From NCBI GenBank assembly GCA_036785375.1, contig JAWMAR010000104.1, positions 6,076,001 to 6,140,000 of the forward strand: a stretch of 64,000 nt of DNA. Reading direction: 5' to 3'. The notes beneath the pieces were generated by a model. It saw only the letters and a program-made list of their open reading frames with translations. It was not told the DNA's origin and made no database searches. Shown here one piece after another: positions 19,013 through 59,864 of this stretch. A program made the position numbers and the translations under genes. Source of the DNA: Leucoraja ocellata. Taxonomy: Eukaryota. Each line of letters begins with the position of its first letter. Position 1 is the stretch's first letter.

Positions 19013-22000
19013 GAAACATAGAAAATAGGTGCAGGAGTAGGCCATTCGGCCCTTCGAGCCAGCACCGCCATTCAATATGATCATGGCTGATCATCCAAAA
19101 TCAGTACACCGTTCCTGCTCTTTCCCCATATCCCTTGATTCCCCCAGTCCCAAGAGCTAAATCTAACTCTCCCTTGAAAACATCCAGTGAATTGGCCTCC
19201 ACTGCCTTCTGTGACAGAGAATTCCACAGATTCACAACAAACTCTCTGGGTGAAAAGATTTCTCCTCTTCTCAGTCCTAAATGGCTACCACTTATTCTTG
19301 CTGTGGCCCCTGGTTCTGACTCCCCCAACATCGGGAACATTTTTGCTGCATCTACCCTGTCCAACCCTTTAAGAATTTTATAAGTTTCTTGTAAGATCCC
19401 CTCTCATCCATCTACATTCCAGCGAAAGCAAGCCCAATCGACCCATTCTTTCATCATACGTCTTTTCCGCCATCCTGGAAAATAACCTGATGAATCTATG
19501 CTGCACTCCCTCAATAGCAATATTTTCCTTCCTCAAATTAGGAGACCAAAATTGCACACAATTTGCTCACCAGGGCCCTGTACAACTGCAGTAGGACCTC
19601 CTTGCTCCTAAACTCAAATCGTCTCGCAATGAAGGCCATTGGCTTTCTTCACTGCCTGCTATACCTGCCTGCTTACTTTCAGTGACTGATGTACAAGCAC
19701 ACCCAGGTCTCGTTGCATCTCCCCTTCTCCTAATCTGACACCATTTAGATAATAATCTGCAGAACATGGATAGGTGATGTTTCGGATCCTTCTTGTCCTT
19801 GCCCCCAAAGTGGATAACCTCCCATCTACCCACATTATCCAGCATCTGCCATGCTTCTGCCCACTCACCCAACCTATAATCCAAGTCACCCTGCAACCCT
19901 GTTTAGTGCTTTAGTGTGTTTTGTGCGTTGGCTGCTGCCGCTGTTGCTGTGCAGTAATTTTTACACAGCATGTGTAGAGTCGCGTATAGGAGGGATGAAC
20001 TCCTTATGTGGCGACGGACAGCTTACGGAATAAAACACCATATTCCATCTGAGCTGAAGAAGCCGTTCCGTGGTTGCCGTGCAGGTGCCAGGCTAAGGGC
20101 CAGGCTAAGGGCCTGGAGGTGGAGATACAAGCCGTTTCTGCCATCGATCCTTATGGGGAACGTCAACTCATTCCCTAACAAGTGTGAGGAGTTGGAGGTC
20201 CTTATGAAGAATCAACGGGTCTACCGTGAGTGCAGTCTCATGTGTTTTACCGAGACGTGGCTGATGGACATCATCCCGGATTCCTGTGTGGATCTCCCCG
20301 GCTTCACTACGGTACGAGCAGATAGAGACCCGGGCAAGTGAGAAGATCAAAGGTGGGGGACTTGCTCTGCTTGTGAACAATAGATGGTGTAATCCAGGTC
20401 ACATAACTGTGAAAGATAATATCTGTTGTCGGGATATTGAGCTCCTGGCGGTTGGACTGAGACTTTATTATGTACCGAGGGAGTTCTCCCACATCGTCGC
20501 CATTATTGTTTCATTCCTCCTCGAGCGGAGCCTGTAGTCGCATGTAACGTCATCCAAGAGACTGTCGCGAGATTACAGACCCGACACCCGGACGTACTCA
20601 TTGCCTTATCAGGGGACTTCAATCATGTGAACATCAGCCCCCACTTGTCAGGCTTCTCACAGTATGTTGACTGTCCCACAAGGCACAATAAGACACTGGA
20701 CTTGTGCTATGTCAATGTCAAGGAGGCCTATAGTGTCTTAGCCTTTGCACCGCTTGGCAAATCAGATCACAACCTGGTTTATCTAAGGCCTTCTTACAAA
20801 CCCTGTGTACTGAGACAGCCTACAATCACCTGGTCTTTCAGAAAATGGACACCAGAGGCCAGTGAATCACTGAGGGACTGCTTTCAATGCACAGACTGGG
20901 ACATACTGATGGAGTCACAGGAATTAAACAGCTGTATGGACATCGACAGGATGGCTGGATGCATAACGGACTACATCAACTTCTGTATGGATGTTGTTGT
21001 GCCAGTAAGAACTGTTTGTTGCTTTCCCAATAACAAACCTTGGATTACAAGCAACATTCAGAGCCTAAACGAGAAAAAGGAGGCTTTCAAGGTTGGTGAT
21101 CGGGAAAAAATCAAGAGGGTACAGCACCACTTGAAAAGGAGTATGAAGCAGGCAAAAGGGGACTATAAAAGGAAGCTGGAGAGGAAACTGCAGTACAACA
21201 ACATCAAAGAGGTGTGGAGAGGAATGAAGACCATCACTGGCTTCAAGGAGAAGAGAAGCCAGCCGTCAGGAGACGTGGACAAGGCCAATGAGTTTAACCT
21301 GTTCTATAACAGGTTTGATCTGGTATCCCCTCCCACCTCTACAGGTGCAGCCTCTCCCCCACCATCACCTCCACGAGGCAGCCCCCCCAACACCACAGCT
21401 GCAGCACCTCCTATGCCGGCATCTCCTCAACTGTTCTTCACGGGGGACGAGGTGAGAGCTGAGCTGAGGAGGCTGCGTGTGCCCTGGTAAAGCAGCTGGC
21501 CCTGATGGTGTATGTCCCAGGCTACTGAAAGACTGTGCGGTTCAGCTGGCGGAGCCGCTCCAGACCATTTTCAACCTGAGCCTCCAGTCAGGGAGGGTAC
21601 GAGGTTTGTGGAAAACATCATGTCTCGTGCTGGTTCCCAGAGCAGTGCGGCCGACCGAGATCAACGACTACAGACCGGTGGCCCTTACATCCCATATCAT
21701 GAAGACAATGGAGCGGCTACTCATTCGTCTCCTGAGACCACAAGTCCAGCACGCACTAGACCCACTACAGTTTGCGTACCAGGAGAACATTGGGGTGGAT
21801 GACGCAGTCCTCTACATGCTGCACCGGATCTACTCCTTTTTGGACAAACCCGGTGGCTATGTGAGGATTATGTTCTTCAACTTCTCAATTGCGTTCAACA
21901 CCATCCAACCCCTGATTTTGAATGACAAGCTTAAGAAGATGGGGGTGGATTCCACATTTATCTCCCGGATATACGACTACCTGACGGGTCGACCACAGTT

Positions 22001-24312
22001 TGTCAAGCTGGGGGACAGTGTCTCTGGCACAGTGGTGTGCAATGTTGGAGCCCCACAGGGAACGGTTCTGGCCCCGTTCCTCTTCACCCTGTATACAGCA
22101 GACTTTAACTATAAGTCTGACACATGCCACATACAGAAATATTCAGATGATACAGCGATCGTGGCATGTGTAAGGAACGGGCAGGAGGAGGAATACAGGG
22201 ACTTGGCCAGTTCCTTTTGTGCCTGGAGTGAAGAGAACTGTCTCATCCTGAACACAACTAAGACTAAAGAGATGGTGGTTAACTTTGGCAGGTCCAAGCT
22301 CCCCCTTCAGCCGGTCAACGCTGCTGGGGCTGACATTGAGGTGGTGCAGACATATAAATACCTTGGAGTGCACCTTGATAACAAACTGGACTGGTCTGTC
22401 AACTCTGACTCCCTCTACAAAAAAGGCCAGAGCAGACTCTTTTTCCTCAGAAGGCTCAAATCCTTCAATGTGTGTAGTGATATGCTGCACATGTTTTACA
22501 ACACTGTTGTCGCAAGTGTTATTTTCTACACTGTTGTCTGCTGGGGCAACAGCATTAGTGCAAAAAACAACAAGAAGCTGGTCAAACTGGTTAAACGAGC
22601 TAGCTCAGTGCTGGAGGGGAGAGTAGACTCTGGGATGGATGTGCTTGAGAGGCGTATGAGGCACAAGGTGCAGGTCATCCTGAAAAACCCCGGGCATCCC
22701 CTCCATGTAATTCTGGAGAGTCAAAAGGGCACTCGGAACAACAACCGGCTCCTCTCCCTGCCCTGTAGAACAGAGCGGTTCAGGAGATCCTTCACCCCTG
22801 CACCCATTAGATTTTATAATTTGGACCGCTAGGCTGTAGGGGGATGCATTCTTGCAATTTTTAATTTTTAATTGTTAATTATTGGTCTTTTTAAGTATTT
22901 ATTGCTCTCAGGTAGTGTCCACAGTGCATTCTATGTATTTTCTGTGCGTTCGTTTTGAATCTGTGGGTTTGTTGGTTGGGGGCTTCTGGACATCTGAATT
23001 TCCCTGAGGGGATCAATAAAGTATTAAAAAAAAAAATAAAAATAAAAACCTCCTAGCATCCTCCTCGCAGCTCACACTGCCACCCGGCTTTGTGTCATCC
23101 GCAAATTTTGAGATGTTACATTTAATTCCATCGTCTAAATCGTTAATATACAATGTAAACAACTGGAGTCCCAGCACCGAGCCTTGCGGCACCCCCCTAG
23201 TCACTGCCTGCCATTCGGAAAAGGACCCATTAATTCCTACTCTTTGCTTCCTGTCTGCCAACCAGTTCTTTATCCATGTCAATACCCTACCCCCAATACC
23301 ATGTGCTCTAATTTTGCACACTGAGCTCTTGTGTGGGACCTTGCCAAAGGGTTTTTGAAAGTCCAGATACACCACATCCACTGGCTCTCCCTTATCCATT
23401 CTATTGGTTACATCCTCAAAAAATAGCAAAAGATTATTCAAGCAGGATATCCCCTTCATAAATCCATGCTGACTTTGACCGATCCCATCATTACTTCACA
23501 AATGCGCTGTTATAACATCTTTAATAATCGACTCCAGCATCTTCCCCACTACCGACGTAAGGCTAACTGGTCCATAATTCCCAGTTTTCTCTCTCCCTCC
23601 TTTCTTAAAAATGATCACCAATGCATCCACGATTTCTTGGGCCACCTCCTTGAGTACTCTGGGATGCAGACCATCTGGCTCTGGGGATTTATCTGCCTTG
23701 TCCCAACAGATTACCTAACACCATTTTGACTAATGTGGATTCCCTTCAGTTCCTCCCTCTCACTAGACCTTCAGTCCCCTAGTATTTCCAGGAGATTGTT
23801 TGTATCTTCCTTAATGAATACAGAACCAAAGTACTCGTTTAACTGTTCTGCCATTTCCATGTTTCCCATTATAAATTCACCCGTCTCTGTCTGTAAGGGA
23901 CCTACATTCGTCTTCACTAATCTTTTCCTTTTTTACATACATCTAGTGACTTTTAGTCAGTTTTTATATTCCCTGCAAGCTTTCTTTCATGCTCCCCCCC
24001 TCTTAATTAACCCCTTTGTCCTCCTCTGTTGAGTTCTAAATTTCTCCCAGTCCTCTGGTTTGCCGCTTCTTCTGTATTATACATTTATATGCCTTTTCCG
24101 TGGCTTTAACACTATCCTTGACTTCCCTCGTCAGCCACGGTTGAGCCCAGTTTTGTTTTTTTGCCAGACAAGGATGTCCAATTTCTAGAGTTCGTCCATG
24201 CGGTCTTTAAATCTTCGCCATTGCATCTCCACCGTCAACCCTTTAAGTATAATTTGCCAGTCTATCCTAGCCAATTCCCATCACGTACCTTCAAAGTCTC
24301 ATTTATTCAAGT
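19013..24312 (-). mobile_element. Decayed CR1 LINE, split at ~19900/23047 by a Rex1 insertion
   Basis: RT motifs (VYLDFQK, GVPQGSVLG, KFADDTK) in 23013-23459; the sequence GTCACCCTGCAACC|TCCTAGCATCC is continuous across the insertion. Confidence 0.88.
19901..23046 (+). mobile_element. Rex1/Babar-clade non-LTR retrotransposon, near full length, frameshifted
   Basis: AP endonuclease (CFTETWL, GDFN, SDH) and RT 21477-22832 (DYRPVALTS, GAPQGTVLAPFLFTLYT, YSDD); AATAAA and an A-rich tail. Confidence 0.9.
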
Positions 24313-26721: not shown

Positions 26722-26834
26722 ATGTCAGCGAACGAGCAGCAGAACTCTTTGCTGCGAGACTCTCAACAGGATATAGCCAGCAACTCGGATGTGGAGGTGA
26801 GAGGGGCTACCCCTGCTGCAGTGCCAGTCCACAG
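26722..26834 (+). CDS. cd74: CD74 / MHC class II invariant chain, exon 1 (cytoplasmic tail)
   Basis: accATG; MSANEQQNSLLRDSQQDIASNSDVEVRGATPAAVPVHR with an acidic dileucine-like sorting motif (EQQNSLL); donor AG|gtaagg; phase 2 matches exon 2; preceded by kB/GC/ETS sites. Confidence 0.85.
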
Positions 26835-34443: not shown

Positions 34444-34622
34444 GAGCCTGAGCTGGGGCCGAGGGCTGCTCTACGCTGGCGTATCCATCCTGGTGGCCAT
34501 GCTCATCGCCGGCCAGGTGGTCGGCATCATGTTCCTGATGAAGCAACAGGACAAGATAGACGGGCTGCAGAAGACCACGAGACGTCTTGAGAGCAAGTAC
34601 TCGGCGAGCCGCGGACCATTCA
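34444..34622 (+). CDS. cd74: CD74 exon 2 (type II transmembrane segment)
   Basis: SLSWGRGLLYAGVSILVAMLIAGQVVGIMFLMKQQDKIDGLQKTTRRLESKYSASRGPF, matching the invariant-chain TM pattern (RG.LY.G.SILV..L.AGQ....FL..QQ..ID.L); AG/GT boundaries. Confidence 0.95.
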
Positions 34623-36657: not shown

Positions 36658-36740
36658 GACCGAAGCCAATCATGCACCTGAGACCGATGATGATGGATCT
36701 GCCCATTTCCTACATCAACCCCAATGCCGACGCACCAAAG
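36658..36740 (+). CDS. cd74: CD74 exon 3 (CLIP region)
   Basis: RPKPIMHLRPMMMDLPISYINPNADAPK; Pro/Met-rich and CLIP-like; phases 1/0 fit. Confidence 0.9.
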
Positions 36741-39875: not shown

Positions 39876-39971
39876 GATGGAAACCGAACAGAAGGGATTC
39901 CAGAAATGATTGGAAGCTTCTCCGACAACCTCCAGCTGCTGAAAGAGAATCTGAACGAATCCGACTGGAAG
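39876..39971 (+). CDS. cd74: CD74 exon 5 (trimerisation domain)
   Basis: DGNRTEGIPEMIGSFSDNLQLLKENLNESDWK; conserved GSF..NL..LK.....DWK; 96 nt. Confidence 0.95.
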
Positions 39972-42319: not shown

Positions 42320-42427
42320 GGAGGAACGTCTTCTCCAGCATGGTCATGAGCCCACTGCTCAACCTTCCTATCGCAGACAGTGCCTCCAAGCAATCCGGTC
42401 TTGCTGAAGTCGTTCCTAAAAAAAGGG
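42320..42427 (+). CDS. cd74: CD74 extra linker exon (extended linker before the thyroglobulin domain)
   Basis: tctccacag| ... G|gtaact; 108 nt, phase 1-1, open frame GRNVFSSMVMSPLLNLPIADSASKQSGLAEVVPKKR; a non-repeat island between repeats. Confidence 0.75.
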
Positions 42428-43252: not shown

Positions 43253-43453
43253 TTTTCCATGCAGAGACTGAGTGTGAGAGACTGAAAAGGGTGGCGGAAA
43301 TTAAGCCCGGAACATTCCAGCCAAGCTGTGACAAGGATGGGAACTATGAGCCAAAGCAATGCTGGCCAAGCACTGGCTACTGCTGGTGTTCCTATCCCAA
43401 TGGGACCAAGATTGAAGAGACCGCAACCAGGAAACAACTGGATAATTGTCAAA
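43253..43453 (+). CDS. cd74: CD74 thyroglobulin type-1 domain exon (p41-type, exon 6b equivalent)
   Basis: ETECERLKRVAEIKPGTFQPSCDKDGNYEPKQCWPSTGYCWCSYPNGTKIEETATRKQLDNC; six Cys and CWC motif; phase 1-1; an alternative in-frame acceptor would start the exon at 43265. Confidence 0.95.
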
Positions 43454-44251: not shown

Positions 44252-44293
44252 GCTACCAAAAGCCAGATGACCCAAACTTTTCCGGCTTTGGTG
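44252..44293 (+). CDS. cd74: CD74 penultimate exon (Ser-Gly glycosaminoglycan attachment motif)
   Basis: SYQKPDDPNFSGFG with an acidic stretch followed by SG; ttcag| ... G|gtgagt. Confidence 0.85.
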
Positions 44294-47963: not shown

Positions 47964-47977
47964 CTTTTGAGGCCTAA
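47964..47977 (+). CDS. cd74: CD74 terminal coding exon (AFEA*)
   Basis: Strong acceptor ttttttcttacag|; phase 1 gives A-F-E-A-stop; the whole model is 1017 nt = 338 aa. Confidence 0.7.
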
Positions 47978-51268: not shown

Positions 51269-54200
51269 CATACAACCATATAACAATTACAGCACGGAAA
51301 CAGGCCATCTCAGCCCTACAAGTCCGTGCCGAACAACTTTTTTCCCTTAGACCCACCTGCCTGCACTCATACCATAACCCTCCATTCCCTTCTCATCCAT
51401 ATGCCTATCCAATTTATTTTTAAATGATACCAACGAACCAGCCTCCACCACTTCCACTGAAAGCTCATTCCACGCAGCTACCACTCTCTGAGTAAAGAAG
51501 TTCCCCCTCATGTTACCCCTAAACTTCTGTCCCTTAATTCTGAAATCATGTCCTCTTGTTTGAATCTTCCCTATTCTCAAAGGGAAAAGCTGATCCACAT
51601 CAACTCTGTCTATCCCTCTCATCATTTTAAAGACCTCTATCAAGTCCCCCCTTAACCATCTGCGCTCCAGAGAATAAAGACCTAACTTATTCAACCTTTC
51701 TCTGTAACTTAGTTGTTGAAACCCAGGCAACATTCTAGTAAATCTCCTCTGTACTCTCTCTATTTTGTTGACATCCTTCCTATAATTGGGCGACCAAAAT
51801 TGTACACCATACTCCAGATTTGGTCTCACCAATGCCTTGTACAATTTTAACATTACATCCCAGCTTCTATACTCAATGCTCTGATTTATAAAGGCTAGCA
51901 TACCAAAAGCTTTCTTTACCACCCTATCTATATGAGATTCCACCTTCAAGGAACTATTCCCAGATCCCTCTGGTTAACTGTATTCTTCAATTCCCTGCCA
52001 TTTACCATGTACGTCCTATTTTGATTTGTCCTGCCAAGGTGTAGCACCTCACATTTATCAGCATTAAACTCCATCTGCCATCTTTCAGCCCATTCTTCCA
52101 AATGGCCTAAATCATTCTGTAGACTTTGGAAATCCTCTTCATTATCCACAACACCCCCTATCTTGGTATCATCTGCATACTTACTAATCCAATTTACACA
52201 CTTTCATCCAGATCATTGATGTACATGACAAACAACAAAGGACCCAACACCGATCCCTGAGGCACCGCACTAGTCACCTGCGTCCAACCCGACAAACAAA
52301 CATCCACCATTACCCTCTGGCTTCTCCCATTTAGCCATTGTTTAATCCATTTTGCTACTCCTGCATTTATACCCAACAGTTGAACCTTCTTAACCAACCT
52401 TCCATGAGGAACCTTGTCAAAGGCCTTACTAAAGTCCATATAGACAACATCCACTGCTTTACCCTCGTCAATTTCCCTGGTAACCTCTTCAAAAAATTCA
52501 AGAAGCTTAGTCAAACATGACCTTCCAGGCACAAATCCATGCTAACTGTTCCTAATCAGACCCTGTTTATCCAGATGCTTATATATATTATCTCTAAGTA
52601 TCTTTTCCATTAATTTGCCCACCACTGAAGTCAAACTAACAGGCCTATAATTGCTAGGTTTACTCTTAGAACCCTTTTAAAACAATGGAACAACATGCGC
52701 AGTACGCCAATCCTCAGGGACTATTCCCATTTCTAATGACATTTGAAATATTTCTGTCATAGCCCCGGCTATTTCTACACTAACTTCCCTCAATGTCCTA
52801 GAGAATATCCTGTCAGGACCTGGAGACTTATCCACTTTTATATTTTTCAAAAGTGTCAGTACTTCTTTTACTTTGAAACTCATAGTATCCATAGCTACTC
52901 TACTAGTTTCCATTACCTCACATAATTCAATATCCTTCTCCTTGGTGAATACTGACAAAAAGAAATTGTTCAATATCTCCCCCCCATCTCTTTTGGCTCT
53001 GCAGATAGCTGTCCACTCTGTCTCTCCAATGGACCAATTTTATCCCTCGTTATCCTTTTGCTATTAATATAGCTGTAGAAACCCTTTGTATTTACTTTCA
53101 CCTTACTTGCCAAAGCAACCTCATGTCTTCTTTTAGCTTTTCTAATTTATTTCTTAAGATTATTTTTACATTCCTTATACTCCTCAAGCACCTCATTTGC
53201 TTCATGCTGCCTATAATTATTGTAGATCTCCCTCTTTTTCCGAACAAGATGTCCAATTTCCCTTGAAAACCAGGCCTCTTTCCACTTTTTACTGTTTCCT
53301 TTCAACCTAACAGGAACATAAAGATTCTGTACTCTTAATATTTCCCCTTTAAATGTCCTCCATTTCTCTTCTATCCTTCCCATAAAACAAAATGTCCCAG
53401 TTCACTCCTTTTAAATCCTTTCGCATCTCATCAAAGTTAGCCTTTCTCCAATCAAAAATCTCAACCCTAGGTCCAGTTCTGACCCTCTCCATAATTATAT
53501 TGAAACTAATGGTATTGTGATCACTGGACCCAAAGTGCTCCCCAACGCATACCTCCGCCACCTGTCCCGTCTCATTTCCTAACAGGAGGTCCAACACTGC
53601 CCCTCCTCTAGTAGGTACCTCTATGTATTGCTGCAAAAAACTATCCTGCACATATTTTACAAACTCCAAACCATCCAGCCCATTTACCGAATGTGTTTCC
53701 CAGTCTATGTGTGGAAAGTTGAAATTTCCCATAATCACTACTTTGTGCTTACTACTAATATCTGCTATCTCCTTACATATTTGCTCTTCCAATTCTCGAT
53801 CCCCATTTGGCGGTCTATAATACACTCCTATAAGTGTTGCTACCCCTTTCCCACTTCTTAGTTCCACCCAAATAGCCTCCCTAGATGAGCCCTCCAATCT
53901 ATCCTGCCAAAGCACTGCTGTAATATCTTCCCTGACTAGTAATGCAACACCTCCATCTCTTGCCCCTCCAATTCTATCACACCTGAAGCAACAAAATCCT
54001 GGAATATTTAGTTTCCAATCACAGCCCTCCTGCAACCATGTTTCACTGATCGCCACAACATCATAGAAACATAGAAACATAGAAACATAGAAATTAGGTA
54101 CAGGAGTAGGCCATTCGGCCCTTCGAGCCTGCACCGCATTTCAATATGATCATGGCTGATCATCCAACTCAGTATCGTGTGCCTGCCTTCTCTCCATACC

Positions 54201-57200
54201 CCCTGATCCCCTTAGCCACAAGGGCCACATCTAACTCCCTCTTAAATATAGCCAATGAACTGGCCTCAACTACCCTCTGTGGCAGAGAGTTCCAGAGATT
54301 CACCACTCTCTGTGTAAAAAAAGTTCTTCTCATCTCGGTTTTAAAGGATTTCCCCCTTATCCTTAAGCTGTGACCCCTTGCCCTGGACTTCCCTAACATC
54401 GGGAACAATCTTCCTGCATCTAGCCTGTCCAACCCCTTAAGAATTTTGTAAGTTTCTATAAGATCCCCTCTCAATCTCCTAAATTCTAGAGAGTATAAAC
54501 CAAGTCTATCCGTTCTTTCTTCATAAGACAGTCCTGACATCCCAGGAATCAGTCTGGTGAACCGTCTCTGCACTCCCTCTATGGCAATATTGTCCTTCCT
54601 CAGATTTGGAGACCAAAACTGTACGCAATACTCCAGGTGTGGTCTCACCAAGACCCTGTACAACTGCAGTAGAACCTCCCTGCTCCTATACTCAAATCCT
54701 TTTGCAATGAAAGCTAACATACCATTCGCTTTCTTTACTGCCTGCTGCACCTGCATGCCTACCTTCAATGACTGGTGTACCATGACACCCAGGTCTCGCT
54801 GCATCTCCCCCTTTCCCAATCGGCCACCGTTTAGATAATAGTCTGCTTTCCCGTTTTTGCCACCAAAATGGATAACCTCACATTTATCCACATTATACTG
54901 CATCTGCCAAACATTTGCCCACTCACCCAGCCTATCCAAGTCACCTTGCAGTCTCCTAGCATCCTCCTCACAGCTAACACTGCCCCCCAGCTTAGTGTCA
55001 TCCGCAAACTTGGAGATATTGCCTTCAATTCCCTCATCCAGATCATTAATATATATTGTAAATAGCTGGGGTCCCAGCACTGAGCCTTGCGGTACCCCAC
55101 TAGTCGCTGCCTGCCACTGTGAAAAGGACCCGTTTACTCCCACTCTTTGCTTCCTGTTTGCCAGCCAGTTCTCTATCCACATCAATACTGAACCCCCAAT
55201 GCCATGTGCTTTAAGTTTGTATACTAATCTCTTATGTGGGACCTTGTCAAAAGCCTTCTGGAAGTCCAGATACACCACATCCACTGGTTCTCCCCTATCC
55301 ACGCTACTAGTTACATCCTCGAAAAATTCTATAAGATTCGTCAGACATGATTTACCTGTCGTAAATCCATGCTGACTTTGTCCAATGATTTCACCACTTT
55401 CCAAATGTGCTGCTATCCCATCTTTAATAACTGACTCTAGCAGTTTCCCCACTACCGATGTTAGACTAACTGGTCTGTAATTCCCCGTTTTCTCTCTCCC
55501 TCCCTTCTTAAAAAGTGGGGTTACGTTTGCTACCCGCCAATCCTCAGGAACTACTCCAGAATCTAAAGAGTTTTGAAAGATTATTACTAATGCATCCACT
55601 ATTTCTGGAGCTACTTCCTTAAGTACTCTGGGATGCAGCCTATCTGGCCCTGGGGATTTATCGGCCTTTAATCCATTCAATTTACCCAACACTAATTCCC
55701 AGCTAACCTGGATTTCACTCAATTCCTCCAACTCCTTTGACCCGCGGTCCCCTGCTATTTCCGGCAAATTATTTATGTCTTCCTTAGTGAATACGGAACC
55801 AAAGTAGTTATTCAATTGGTCCGCCATATTCTTGTTCCCCATGATCAACTCACCTGTTTCTGACTGCAAGGGACCTACATTTGTTTTAACTAATCTTTCT
55901 TTTCACATATCTATAAAAACTTTTGCCATCAGTTTTTATGTTCCCTGCCAGTTTTCTTTCATAATCTATTTTTCCTTTCCTAATTAAGCCCTTTGTCCTC
56001 CTCTGCTGGTCTCTGAATTTCTCCCAGTCCTCCGGTATGCTGCTTTTTCTGGCTAATTTGTACGCATCATCCTTTGCTTTGATACTATCCCTGATTTCCC
56101 TTGTTATCCACGAATGTACTACCTTCCCTGATTTATTCTTTTGCCAAACTGGGATGAACAATTTTTGTAGTTCATCCATGCAGTCTTTAAATGTCTTCCA
56201 TTGCATATCCACCGTCAACCCGCTTAGAATTAATTGCCAGTCAATCTTGGCCAATTCACGTCTCATACCCTCAAAGTTACCTTTCTTTAAGTTCAGAACC
56301 ATTGTTTCTGAATTAACAATGTCACTCTCCATCCTAATGAAGAATTCAACCATATTATGGTCACTCTTGCCCAAGGGGGCACGTACAACAAGATTGCTAA
56401 CTAACCCTTCCTCATTACTCAATACCCAGTCTAAAATAGCCTGCTCTCTCGTTGGTTCCTCTACATGTTGATTTAGATAACTATCACGCATACATTCCAA
56501 GAAATCCTCTTCCTCAGCACCCCTGCCAATTTGATTCACCCAATCTATATGTAGATTGAAGTCACCCATTATAACTGTTTTGCCTTTGCCGCACGCATTT
56601 CTAATTTCCTGTTTGATACCATCTCCAACTTCACTACTACTGTTAGGTGGCCTGTACACAACACCCACCAGCGTTTTCTGCCCCTTAGTGTTTCGCAGCT
56701 CTACCCATACCGATTCCACATCCTCCAAACTAATGTCCTTCCTTTCCATTGCACTAATCTCCTCTCTAATCAGTAACGGTACCCCACCTCCTTTTCCTTT
56801 CTCTCTATCCCTCCTGAATATTGAATATCCCTGGATGTTCAGCTCCCAGCCTCGGTCACCCTGGAGCCATGTCTCCGTGATCCCAACTATATCATAGTCA
56901 TTAATAGCTATCTGCGCATTCAACTCATCCACCTTATTACGAATGCTCCTTGCATTGAGACACAAAGCCTTCAGGCTTGTTTTTATAACACTCTTACCCC
57001 TTATACAATTATGTTGAAAAGTGTCCCTTTTTGATTTTTGCCCGGGTTTTGTCTGCCTGCCACTTTTACTTTTCGCCTTGCTACCTATTGCTTCTACCCT
57101 CATTTTACACCCCTCGGTCTCTACGCTCACACATTTAAGAAACCCTTTCCCTTTAACTCCATCATCCACTATCCCACTCGACACCTACCCCCCTTATTCA

Positions 57201-59864
57201 GTTTAAAGCCACCCGTGTAGCAGTGGCAAACCTGCCTGCCAGAATGCTGGTCCCACACCTGTTAAGATGCAATCCGTCCCTTTTGTACAGTTCCCCCTTA
57301 CCCCAAAACAGATCCCAGTGATCTAAGAATCTAAATCCCTGCCCCGTGCACCAGTTCCTCAGCCACACGTTCAGATCCCGTATCTCCCTGATCCTGCTCT
57401 CGCCAGCACGAGGAACTGGAAGCAAACCGGAGATAACAACCCTGGAGGTCCTGCTTTTCAACATTTTTCCGAGCTCTCTAAAGTCACGCTGCATAATATT
57501 CATCCCCTTCTGTCCGACATCGTTTGTGCCGACATGCACTACCACTTCCGGATGTTCACCTTCGCCCTTGAGGATTTTCTGCACTCTGTCCGTGACATCC
57601 TGGATCCTGGCACCGGGAAGGCAACACACCATCCTCGCATCCCGTCTGTTGCCGCAGAAACCCCTGTCCGTACCTCTCACAATGGAGTCTCCCATTACAA
57701 TGGCCTTGCCTGCCTTAGGCCTTTTTGGTTTTGGCTCAACAGCCCTATTCGCATCGCAAGCCAGTCTGTCGCTCAGTGTAAACACGTCTTCTGTCCCAAC
57801 AGCTTCTAAGCGGATGAACCTGTTTACAAGAGGTACATCACCCGGGGACGTTGGCATTCCATGCTTCCCTCCCTTTCTCACTATCTCCCACCTTCTCTCT
57901 TCCAGTACCTTACGTGTAACAATCGTACTGTAGGACTTGTCGAGGAACGACTCCGTTTCTCGTACGAACTCATCCACTTGCTTCTCCAGTTCCCCAACAC
58001 GGCCCTTCAGGAGCTCCACCTGGATGCACTTTTCGCATTTGTAGCAGCCAGAGGCACCAGCGGTGTCCTTGACCTCCCACATACTGCAAGCATCGCACTG
58101 AATCAGCTTGCCTGACATCTCCCTACTTCCAGGTGTCTATCCAGACTCTAAGCTCATCCACCTTTCTTACAATGCTCCTAGCATTAAAATATGCACATTT
58201 AAGAAACCCCTCGCCTCTTATTCTCTGCTTATTTCCTTTTTTTCCTTTCTCCTCTTGTGTCCGAGTGCTTCCCATTTCTGCTTCCTGCCTCCCATTCTGT
58301 CTACTAGCTTTCTCTATTTGAATCCCTCGCCCCAACCATTCTAGTTTAAAGTCTCCCCAGTGGCCTTTGCAAATTTCCCCGCCAGGATATTGGTCCCCCT
58401 CGGGTTCAAGTGCAACCCATCCTTTCTGTACAAGTCCCGCCTTCCCCAAAAGAAGTCCCAATGATCCAGGAACTTGAATCCCTGCCCTCTGCACCAGTCT
58501 TTCAGCCACGCATTTATCCTCCACCTCGCTCCATTCCTACTCTCACTGTCGCGTGGCACAGGCAGTAATCCTGACATTGTTACCTTTTTGGTCCTTTTCC
58601 CTAACTCTCCTCCCAACTCCCTAAATCCTCCCTTCAGGACCTCTTCCCTTTTTTTTACCTATGTCATTGGTACCTATATGTACCACGACCTCGGGCTCCT
58701 CTCCCTCTGATTTCAGGATATCTTGGACGCGTTGAGACACATCCGAGACCTTGGCACCAGGGAGACAGACCACCATCCTGGTCTCCTGACTGCGTCCACA
58801 GAATCGCCTATCCGACCCCCTAACAATAAAGTCCCCAATTACTAATGCCCTCTTCTTTTTGTCCCTACCTTCAGGAGCAACAGGGCCGGTCTCTGTGCTG
58901 GAGGCCCGTCTGCTCTCGCTACCCCGGGTAGGCTGTCACCCCCATCCGTACTCAAACAGGAGTACTTATTTACAAGTTGTACCGACATTGGAGTACTCAC
59001 TTGTCCCTGCCTCTGCCCCTTGCTCTTCCTTAGCGTGACCCACATGTCTCTCTCCCGTGGTTTTGGAGTGACCACCTCCCTATAACTCCCCTCTATGACC
59101 TCCTCACTCTCCCTGACCAGACAGAGGTCATCGAGATGCTGCTCCAGGATCCTAATACGGTCCCTTAGGAGCCCCATCTCGCTGCACCTGGTGCAGATGT
59201 GGACGTCTGGAGGGCCATCCGACACCATGACCTCCCACATCTGACATCCCGAATAGTACACTGCTCTGGCTGTCATTCTCCCGCCTTACCCTGGATCCGA
59301 TACAAGTACAATACAATAGAAACTGCTGGGAGAAATCAGCAGGTATCTGACTCACAACAGCTGCTCCCTCTTGACCTTTAAACTGCACCTTAATTATATA
59401 AACAAAAAGCACTGTACCCTTAACTCACTGTACCTTTACTAAAGCACTGTACCCTTAGCCCACTGTACCCTTGGCTCACTGTACCTTTACTAAAGCACTG
59501 TACCTTTAGCTCACTGTACCCTTGGCTCACTGTAACTTTAACCAGAAAGCAGAAATGCTAACCTGAGGTTGCACCCAATCAGCTGCTTCCTCTAGTCTGC
59601 TTCCACCAATCAGCGGCTTCCACCAGAACCCTCCCTATGAAGTGTGGAACGTTACAGACTTTGGTAAGCCCTGACCCTCCTCCACTCGCTCCAACGGTCC
59701 CGGGCCTCTGTAAAAGCAAGCCCTGCACTCGATTTATATACTCACCGCCCTGACCCTCCTCCACTCGCTCCAACGGTCCCGGGCCTCTGTAAAAGCAAGC
59801 CCCGCGCTCGATTTATATACTCACCGCCCTGACCCTCCTCCACTCGCTCCAACGGTCCCGGGCC
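51269..59864 (-). mobile_element. Full-length CR1 LINE (outer, disrupted), inserted into a V-SINE and itself interrupted by a second CR1
   Basis: TSD TCTATC (51263-51268, 59865-59870); ORF1 pieces 58842-59276 and 58341-58616; the endonuclease reading ...WIDTWK|YDVVAISETWL is split at 58123/54063; RT pieces 51347-53383. Confidence 0.9.
54064..58122 (-). mobile_element. Near-intact young CR1 LINE (inner): ORF1 zinc-finger + SGNH esterase (57198-58118); ORF2 EN+RT with one frameshift (55886-57184, 54169-55869)
   Basis: CDACSMW..CEKC, GDSIVRG, VHVGTND, DGLHLN; GITETWL, GDFN, SDH; KFADDTK; (CATAGAAA)n tail. Confidence 0.95.

What the first reader, a model, noticed from the sequence alone, without database searches (positions are those of the whole stretch)
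42320..42427. Second CLIP-like peptide in an extra, skippable cd74 linker exon
Seen: a 108-nt phase 1-1 exon encodes ...FSSMVMSPLLNLP..., which resembles both the canonical CLIP core (SKMRMATPLLMQALP) and this gene's exon-3 CLIP (IMHLRPMMMDLP). It lies C-terminal to the trimerisation domain. Known: cartilaginous-fish Ii is reported to have an extended linker before the thyroglobulin domain, and classical DM is reported absent from cartilaginous fish. Inference: the linker may carry a second groove-binding peptide, serving a different class II isotype, giving two class II molecules per chain, or acting as a built-in peptide-exchange aid. It could be switched on or off by splicing because the exon is symmetric.
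Basis: partly seen in the sequence, partly recalled or inferred. Interest (0 to 1): 0.78.

Follow-up and report, generated by a model that had tools for sequence, protein, structure and literature searches.

The report
Second CLIP in shark invariant chain
Skates, rays, sharks and chimaeras carry an extra exon in their invariant-chain (cd74) gene, kept in nearly every protein record examined, that begins with a conserved look-alike of CLIP, the plug of the MHC class II groove; it is likely a duplicate of the CLIP exon and may act as a weak second plug in animals reported to lack the DM peptide editor, but binding is untested.

Summary
The exon is real: AG/GT ends, 108 nt, phase 1-1, between the trimer exon and the thyroglobulin (Tg) exon of a skate cd74. 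It occurs in all chondrichthyan lineages sampled, chimaeras included, and is absent from turtle, snake and human CD74. Its first ~14 residues are conserved (G-R-K-I-F-S-S-M-A-M-K-P-M-[ML]); the rest drifts. A profile of the shark/ray CLIP exon aligns to this exon (E 1e-4) and to none of six other cd74 exons, and ranks the motif first in 24 of 26 proteins. In this skate alone the likeness is not significant. 'Skippable' is not supported: 65 of 67 records carry the full motif, including all 24 Tg-less forms; the two exceptions look like gene-model errors. The Tg exon is the one skipped. No RNA reads were examined, so rare skipping is open. Best reading: an old duplicate of the CLIP exon (about 0.75) that likely works as a weak, tethered second groove peptide (about 0.42). 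Rivals are a protease site or a decaying spacer. The long linker is recalled as published; the two key papers could not be read, so the CLIP likeness may already be noted.

The parts
26722..26834 (+). cd74 exon 1, coding part (cytoplasmic tail)
   Evidence: tblastn 38/38 to skate record P0031; ATG and donor read
34444..34622 (+). cd74 exon 2 (transmembrane helix)
36658..36740 (+). cd74 exon 3, phase 1-0; canonical CLIP core IMHLRPMMMDLP at 36669-36704
   Evidence: PF09307 covers this region in relative P0003
39085..39150 (+). cd74 exon 4
39876..39971 (+). cd74 exon 5 (trimerisation domain)
   Evidence: PF08831 in P0003
40645..40759 (+). cd74 exon 6 (end of trimer domain plus Pro/Thr-rich tether), phase 0-1
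42320..42427 (+). Extra linker exon, 108 nt, phase 1-1, present in both Tg+ and Tg- forms
42320..42369 (+). Conserved 5' block of the extra exon: (G)RNVFS then the CLIP-like segment SMVMSPLLNLP (42337-42369)
42370..42427 (+). Fast-evolving remainder of the extra exon (spacer, variable length)
   Evidence: pair identity 0.16, site rate 1.96
43253..43453 (+). Thyroglobulin type-1 exon (6b), phase 1-1; the exon that is actually skipped
44252..44293 (+). cd74 exon 7, phase 1-1, optional in skate records
47964..47977 (+). Last coding exon (AFEA-stop)
   Evidence: sequence; matches C-termini of skate records

Best explanation
The exon is an extra cd74 exon shared by the cartilaginous fish sampled and kept in both long and short isoforms; its first codons are likely an old duplicate of the CLIP exon and would act as a weaker second groove peptide on a flexible tether. 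SHOWN: exon, conservation of its 5' block, CLIP likeness at family level, retention in Tg+ and Tg- forms, position 30-39 residues past the trimer domain. INFERRED: (1) origin by duplication of exon 3 before chimaeras and elasmobranchs split (about 0.75); (2) the tether lets the motif reach a groove in the same Ii3:(alpha-beta)n complex; (3) with the proline set at P6 as in human CLIP (register recalled), P1 is Ser in 24 of 26 and P9 varies, so it would bind weakly; (4) once CLIP leaves, it would hold the emptied groove briefly and yield to a stronger antigen peptide, covering part of the job that DM does in tetrapods. Steps 2-4 are untested.
For: hhalign exon 3 vs extra exon E 9.9e-5; six other exons E 0.18-0.96. 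CLIP profile ranks the motif first in 24 of 26 proteins; the reverse profile ranks CLIP first in 25 of 26; composition-preserving 12-mer shuffles p<0.05 in 23 of 26 and 26 of 26. Shark example: SIAMRPMMVDMP vs own CLIP QMMIRPMMMDLP, 6 of 12 identical (P0061). Pro in 25 of 26, following Met/Leu in 26 of 26, Met at -2 in 22 of 26. 5' block slower than the rest of the exon, p 4e-5; best 16-column window of the whole linker, permutation p 0.011. Both exons start in phase 1 with the motif near the 5' end. Linker 61-67 residues in 4 chondrichthyan proteins vs 13-20 in 3 reptiles; human runs from trimer domain straight to Tg. No DM in cartilaginous fish and the exchange mechanism is called unresolved (PMC8010645, passages). 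Human trimer domain is flexible and membrane-distal, and 3:1 and 3:2 complexes exist (PMC11087810).
Against: In skates, the window's lineage, the likeness is weakest: 1-3 of 12 identities, a one-residue deletion after the proline in the window's form, p 0.51-0.90 in four of five rows. The proline is Ser in nurse shark, the -2 Met is Lys in Narcine, and the C-terminal half is lost in chimaeras. The motif is less conserved than CLIP (pair identity 0.43-0.49 vs 0.67) and close to the exon-6 linker (0.40; rate test p 0.07). Three of its slowest sites (G218, R219, S223) lie upstream of the CLIP-like 12-mer and the conserved S224 has no match in CLIP. Site rates of the two 12-mers do not correlate (rho -0.25, p 0.43). 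Pfam PF09307 does not hit the exon. The 26 rows are related, so counts are not independent. Teleosts also lack DM (PMC4219347, passages); I obtained no bony-fish CD74, and they are recalled to have no such linker, which would make the exon unnecessary for life without DM.
Confidence: 0.42

Rival explanations
1. The block is functional but not as a groove peptide: it is a conserved protease site or bait (basic pair, then hydrophobic, then S-S) that controls release of the C-terminal part or the Tg inhibitor domain, or a docking patch for another partner. The CLIP likeness is a trace of origin.
For: Slow sites include G218 (0.69), R219 (0.31), S223 (0.24), S224 (0.34), which CLIP does not share. 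The region is disordered in the model (pLDDT under 50 over 192-255), as cleavage sites often are (general knowledge). Ii is processed by cathepsins (PMC11087810).
Against: M227, P229 and M/L230 are also slow and match CLIP. The block stays in the 24 Tg-less records, where there is no Tg domain to release. No cleavage prediction was run.
Confidence: 0.25
2. The exon is a duplicate of exon 3 that now serves only as a spacer; what remains conserved reflects slow evolution and splice-site constraint at the exon start.
For: Rate not clearly below the exon-6 linker (p 0.07); independent decay in skates, Narcine, nurse shark and chimaeras; the first Gly codon spans the junction.
Against: Twice as slow as the rest of the same exon (p 4e-5); only one deletion (Mobula) in the first 14 columns against many indels downstream; S-S-x-x-M/F-x-P-M/L persists from chimaeras to skates.
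Confidence: 0.18
3. The motif is a full CLIP for a second class II-type molecule (another alpha/beta lineage or a non-classical dimer), so one chain serves two partners or carries two dimers.
For: Sharks have two very old class II alpha/beta lineages (PMC8010645, Discussion). The motif differs from CLIP consistently at -5 (Ser) and -3 (Ala/Val).
Against: Human class II also contacts Ii by loop and transmembrane helix next to CLIP, contacts a distal motif could not supply. The two lineages differ mainly in the Ig domain, not the groove.
Confidence: 0.1
4. The exon is a regulated cassette, switched on and off by splicing.
For: Symmetric phase; the weakest pyrimidine tract of eight acceptors (11 of 17 vs 13-15); one record lacks it (P0051).
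Against: 65 of 67 records have the full motif, including 18 of 18 Logan records and 24 of 24 Tg-less ones. P0051 is a 'hypothetical protein' model that otherwise differs by one residue from RefSeq P0047, which has the exon.
Confidence: 0.05

Closest known systems
CLIP region of CD74/Ii (exon 3; Pfam PF09307 MHC2-interact)
   Same: Met-rich core around a conserved Pro, basic residues upstream, L/M-P downstream; lies in the same chain and orientation; profile-profile match E 1e-4.
   Different: C-terminal to the trimer domain, not next to the membrane; Ser where CLIP has Ile/Met/Val at -5; less conserved; no PF09307 hit; no binding data.
Extended linker of cartilaginous-fish Ii (Criscitiello et al. 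2012, PMID 21996610; not held, content recalled)
   Same: Very likely the same segment: nurse shark records P0052 and P0073 carry it.
   Different: I could not check whether that paper, or Dijkstra and Yamaguchi 2019 (PMID 30377750, not held), notes the CLIP likeness or the separate exon.
p41/p43 thyroglobulin exon 6b of CD74
   Same: Neighbouring phase 1-1 exon in the same C-terminal arm; proposed as an aid to CLIP exchange without DM (PMC8010645 passage).
   Different: It is the alternatively spliced exon (25 of 67 records counted as Tg-less or not: 24 lack it, 43 have it), a folded cysteine domain, unrelated in sequence.
HLA-DM / H2-M peptide editor
   Same: Only the proposed role: protecting empty class II and favouring exchange.
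   Different: DM is a separate class II-like dimer acting from outside the groove (PMC4219347 passages); this is a short peptide in Ii. Not a member.

Membership tests
CD74/invariant chain (the host gene) | MHC2-interact, trimerisation and thyroglobulin domains in order | tested here: met
   PF09307, PF08831, PF00086 over cut-off in P0003, whose exons match the window
CLIP | Sequence relationship to the CLIP segment | tested here: met
   hhalign E 9.9e-5; rank 1 in 24 of 26; family level only
CLIP | Match to Pfam PF09307 | tested here: not met
   0 families for the exon peptide; one stretch only, at the N-terminal CLIP, in 4 of 4 full proteins
CLIP | Position between the transmembrane helix and the trimer domain | tested here: not met
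   Pro lies 30-39 residues after the trimer domain in 26 of 26
CLIP | Anchor pattern P1/P4/P6/P9 conserved | tested here: inconclusive
   P1/4/6/9 p 0.13; P1/4/6/7 p 0.008 but one of 27 tests; the true CLIP failed the same test
CLIP | Occupies the class II groove and is recovered from class II | not testable with these tools
   Needs a binding assay, structure or immunopeptidome
Alternatively spliced cassette exon | Frame-preserving symmetric phase | tested here: met
   108 nt, phase 1-1
Alternatively spliced cassette exon | Skipped in a share of transcripts | tested here: not met
   Absent in 1 of 67 protein records, a likely model error; no read-level data, so rare skipping is open
DM-like peptide editor | Speeds CLIP release and peptide exchange | not testable with these tools
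   Needs kinetics with elasmobranch class II

The most novel reading that the evidence does not exclude
Cartilaginous fish built a peptide-exchange aid into the invariant chain itself: a duplicated, deliberately weak second CLIP on a tether that guards the emptied class II groove and is displaced by antigen, an editing solution older than and independent of DM.
Probability: 0.28. Interest if true: 0.85.

Novelty: new variant of a known kind. Interest (0 to 1): 0.56.

Why it matters
How class II is loaded in vertebrates without DM is stated as unresolved (PMC8010645). A conserved second CLIP-like peptide in every chondrichthyan Ii form gives a small, precise and testable candidate. It would also show that an Ii chain can carry two groove peptides and would date an exon duplication to before the chimaera-elasmobranch split. 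If it is only a protease site or spacer, it still explains the long shark linker as a CLIP-exon duplicate.

Tried and rejected
Complex prediction of skate class II alpha (P0076 20-199), beta (P0074 33-217) and the motif peptide (P0032 214-245): no answer, score 0.01 in two runs, mark 0.34, alignments not used, peptides untested for that tool, no CLIP positive control; it is no evidence either way. AlphaFold2 of the whole chain: mean pLDDT 50.5, linker 192-255 under 50, no fold for the motif; no fold search run on it. Anchor-versus-exposed site-rate test: uninformative because true CLIP failed it. First profile scan had misplaced anchors in 10 blocks and was replaced. First isoform count missed P0026 through a pattern error; replaced. 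DNA-level exon 3 vs extra exon in the window: score 37 vs 29-31 for five other exons, codon-shuffle p 0.09. ESM Atlas on P0061 190-250: no usable feature hit, all TM under 0.4. Pfam on the exon peptide: nothing. The full-library HMMER search for bony-fish CD74 never ran, so gar, bichir, sturgeon, teleost, lungfish and coelacanth are unchecked. No ancestral sequences were obtained. No RNA reads were examined. Earlier-findings look-ups gave nothing relevant. Rejected: chance ORF or repeat-derived pseudo-exon (orthologous in all lineages); chondroitin-sulfate site (the recalled S-G motif lies in exon 7, not here).

Full report
Observation. The window holds a complete cd74 gene on the + strand, from ATG 26722 to stop 47977. 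The closest named records are from the skates Leucoraja erinacea and Amblyraja radiata. The candidate exon has a canonical acceptor before 42320 and donor after 42427, is 108 nt and phase 1-1, and reads (G)RNVFSSMVMSPLLNLPIADSASKQSGLAEVVPKKR(G) in frame with exon 6 and the thyroglobulin (Tg) exon. It is 34/35 identical to unnamed skate records on contigs of about 1.1 kb that span exons lying kilobases apart, so these are inferred to be spliced transcripts.

Inclusion. Two protein searches (query exon 2 only, query an 11-row alignment) gave 20 chondrichthyan clusters; members were listed for 19 of them, the twentieth having one member, and one of 16 members of the largest was not listed. Of the 67 records held, 65 carry the full motif (41 with Tg, 24 without), one has a garbled start to the exon (P0043) and one lacks the exon (P0051). 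P0051 is a 'hypothetical protein' that differs by one residue from RefSeq P0047 apart from the exon. All 18 Logan records include it. The exon therefore looks constitutive, and the Tg exon and exon 7, also phase 1-1, are the optional ones. In Tg-less forms the exon lies close to the C-terminus. No reads were examined, and assemblies drop rare forms, so low-level skipping is not excluded.

Distribution. The exon is present in skates, electric ray, sawfish, stingrays, mobulids, and hexanchiform, heterodontiform, orectolobiform, lamniform and carcharhiniform sharks, and in chimaeras. The stretch from trimer domain to first Tg cysteine is 61-67 residues in four chondrichthyan proteins measured and 13-20 in a turtle and two snakes; human CD74 (PDB 8vrw) runs from trimer domain into Tg within a few residues. 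Bony fish were not obtained.

Conservation. In 26 aligned sequences the first 17 residues have weighted pair identity 0.49, the rest of the exon 0.16, the exon-6 linker 0.40, CLIP 0.67. The best 16-column window of the whole linker falls on the motif (permutation p 0.011). On a tree, mean site rates are 0.97 (first 14), 1.96 (rest), 1.27 (exon-6 linker), 0.64 (CLIP); motif vs rest p 4e-5, motif vs exon-6 linker p 0.07, motif vs CLIP p 0.17. So the block is under constraint, but less than CLIP.

CLIP likeness. A profile of exon 3 aligns to this exon over 14 columns (E 9.9e-5, probability 58%) and to none of the six other exons tested (E 0.18-0.96). A leave-one-out 12-column CLIP profile ranks the motif first in 24 of 26 proteins, p<0.05 against whole-protein shuffles in 19 of 26 and against shuffles of the 12-mer in 23 of 26; the reverse scan ranks CLIP first in 25 of 26. 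Column majorities are S-M-A-M-K-P-M-M-V-[DS]-L-P against [IM]-M-H-L-R-P-M-M-M-D-L-P. The rows are related, so these are not independent trials. Likeness is best in sharks and stingrays (4-7 of 12 identities in most) and poorest in skates (1-3 of 12; p 0.51-0.90 in four of five rows), where the window's form has lost one residue after the proline; nurse shark has Ser for Pro. The shark CLIP profile scores reptile CLIP at only 8-14, against 17-32 for the motif in 19 of 26 rows' best cases, so the motif is closer to chondrichthyan CLIP than reptile CLIP is. Both exons begin in phase 1 with the motif near the 5' end. I infer duplication of exon 3 in the chondrichthyan stem, or earlier with loss in bony vertebrates (about 0.75).

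Mechanism. In the human complex CLIP sits in the groove, the trimer domain is distal and flexible, 3:1 and 3:2 assemblies coexist with 3:3, and cathepsin S likely cuts between CLIP and the trimer domain (PMC11087810, parts 1-2 of 4 read). The motif's proline lies 30-39 residues beyond the trimer domain on a Pro/Thr-rich tether that the model leaves disordered, long enough in principle to reach a groove. If Pro is P6 as recalled for human CLIP, P1 is Ser in 24 of 26 and P9 varies, which predicts weak binding. I therefore favour a tethered, low-affinity second placeholder that guards an emptied groove until a better peptide arrives (0.42). A test of anchor positions by site rate was uninformative because true CLIP failed it. 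Against this reading, some of the best conserved sites (G, R, S, S) are not CLIP-like, which fits a protease or docking site (0.25); decay in several lineages fits a spacer (0.18). A dedicated CLIP for a second class II lineage (0.10) and a splice switch (0.05) fit least.

Comparison with what is known. Almeida et al. 2020 (PMC8010645; passages and first part of the Discussion) report no DM in cartilaginous fish, call the loading mechanism unresolved, and list Tg isoforms, weak CLIP binding, non-classical class II, small molecules and dimers of dimers as options; a second CLIP is not among them in the passages seen. Dijkstra et al. 2013 (PMC4219347, passages) report the same lack in teleosts. 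Roth et al. 2020 (PMC7196912, passages) place CLIP in exon 3 and Tg in exon 6b. Passages of PMC6177389, PMC8236899 and PMC9103719 added nothing on the linker. Criscitiello 2012 and Dijkstra and Yamaguchi 2019, the two papers most likely to discuss it, are not held; the extended linker is recalled from the first, and their alignments or supplements may already note the motif. Nine searches showed no title or abstract on a second CLIP-like segment; one search returned 104 papers of which the 15 listed were irrelevant.

Verdict. Real exon, real conserved CLIP-related block across cartilaginous fish, not shown to be skippable, function untested. New variant of a known kind; interest 0.56.

Noticed in passing
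window 1-64000 vs G000:C104 about 6,252,000-6,315,700 (L031, L032, L008, L006, L007, L009, L033): The whole window recurs about 176 kb downstream on the same contig (63.2 kb aligned, 1.3% mismatches). The second cd74 has one-base deletions in exons 1 and 5 and two changes at the end of the extra exon, none in the motif. Likely an uncollapsed haplotype or assembly error; a recent segmental duplication is not excluded.
   Followed up: partly
G000:C541 about 529,300-597,100 (L005, L021, L026): An MHC class II alpha gene (alpha1, alpha2 exons) and a beta gene lie in tandem; the beta1 and beta2 exons each change frame, either assembly indels or a pseudogene.
   Followed up: partly
L010:1300-2391 (G000:C934): An MHC-like groove exon followed directly by a C1-set exon with a class I-type FDGTFQ motif; may be a W-category-type chain (label recalled, not tested).
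   Followed up: no
window 20441-22832 (+) and 53349-58136 (-): LINE-type retrotransposon remains: RT domains, endonuclease domains and an esterase-like ORF1.
   Followed up: no
window 44252-44293: Exon 7 (phase 1-1) is itself optional in skate records, giving four isoforms with the Tg exon; it carries an acidic S-G motif like the recalled chondroitin-sulfate site of mammalian Ii.
   Followed up: no
P0036, P0007, P0038, P0008, P0039 (sawfish, stingrays, mobulids): A second, overlapping window of the extra exon, centred on its later L-P, scores almost as high on the CLIP profile (19.5-23.2) as the main register.
   Followed up: no
P0005 (Narcine isoform X2): Lacks the exon-4 segment, including the first trimer helix, that isoform X1 has.
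   Followed up: no
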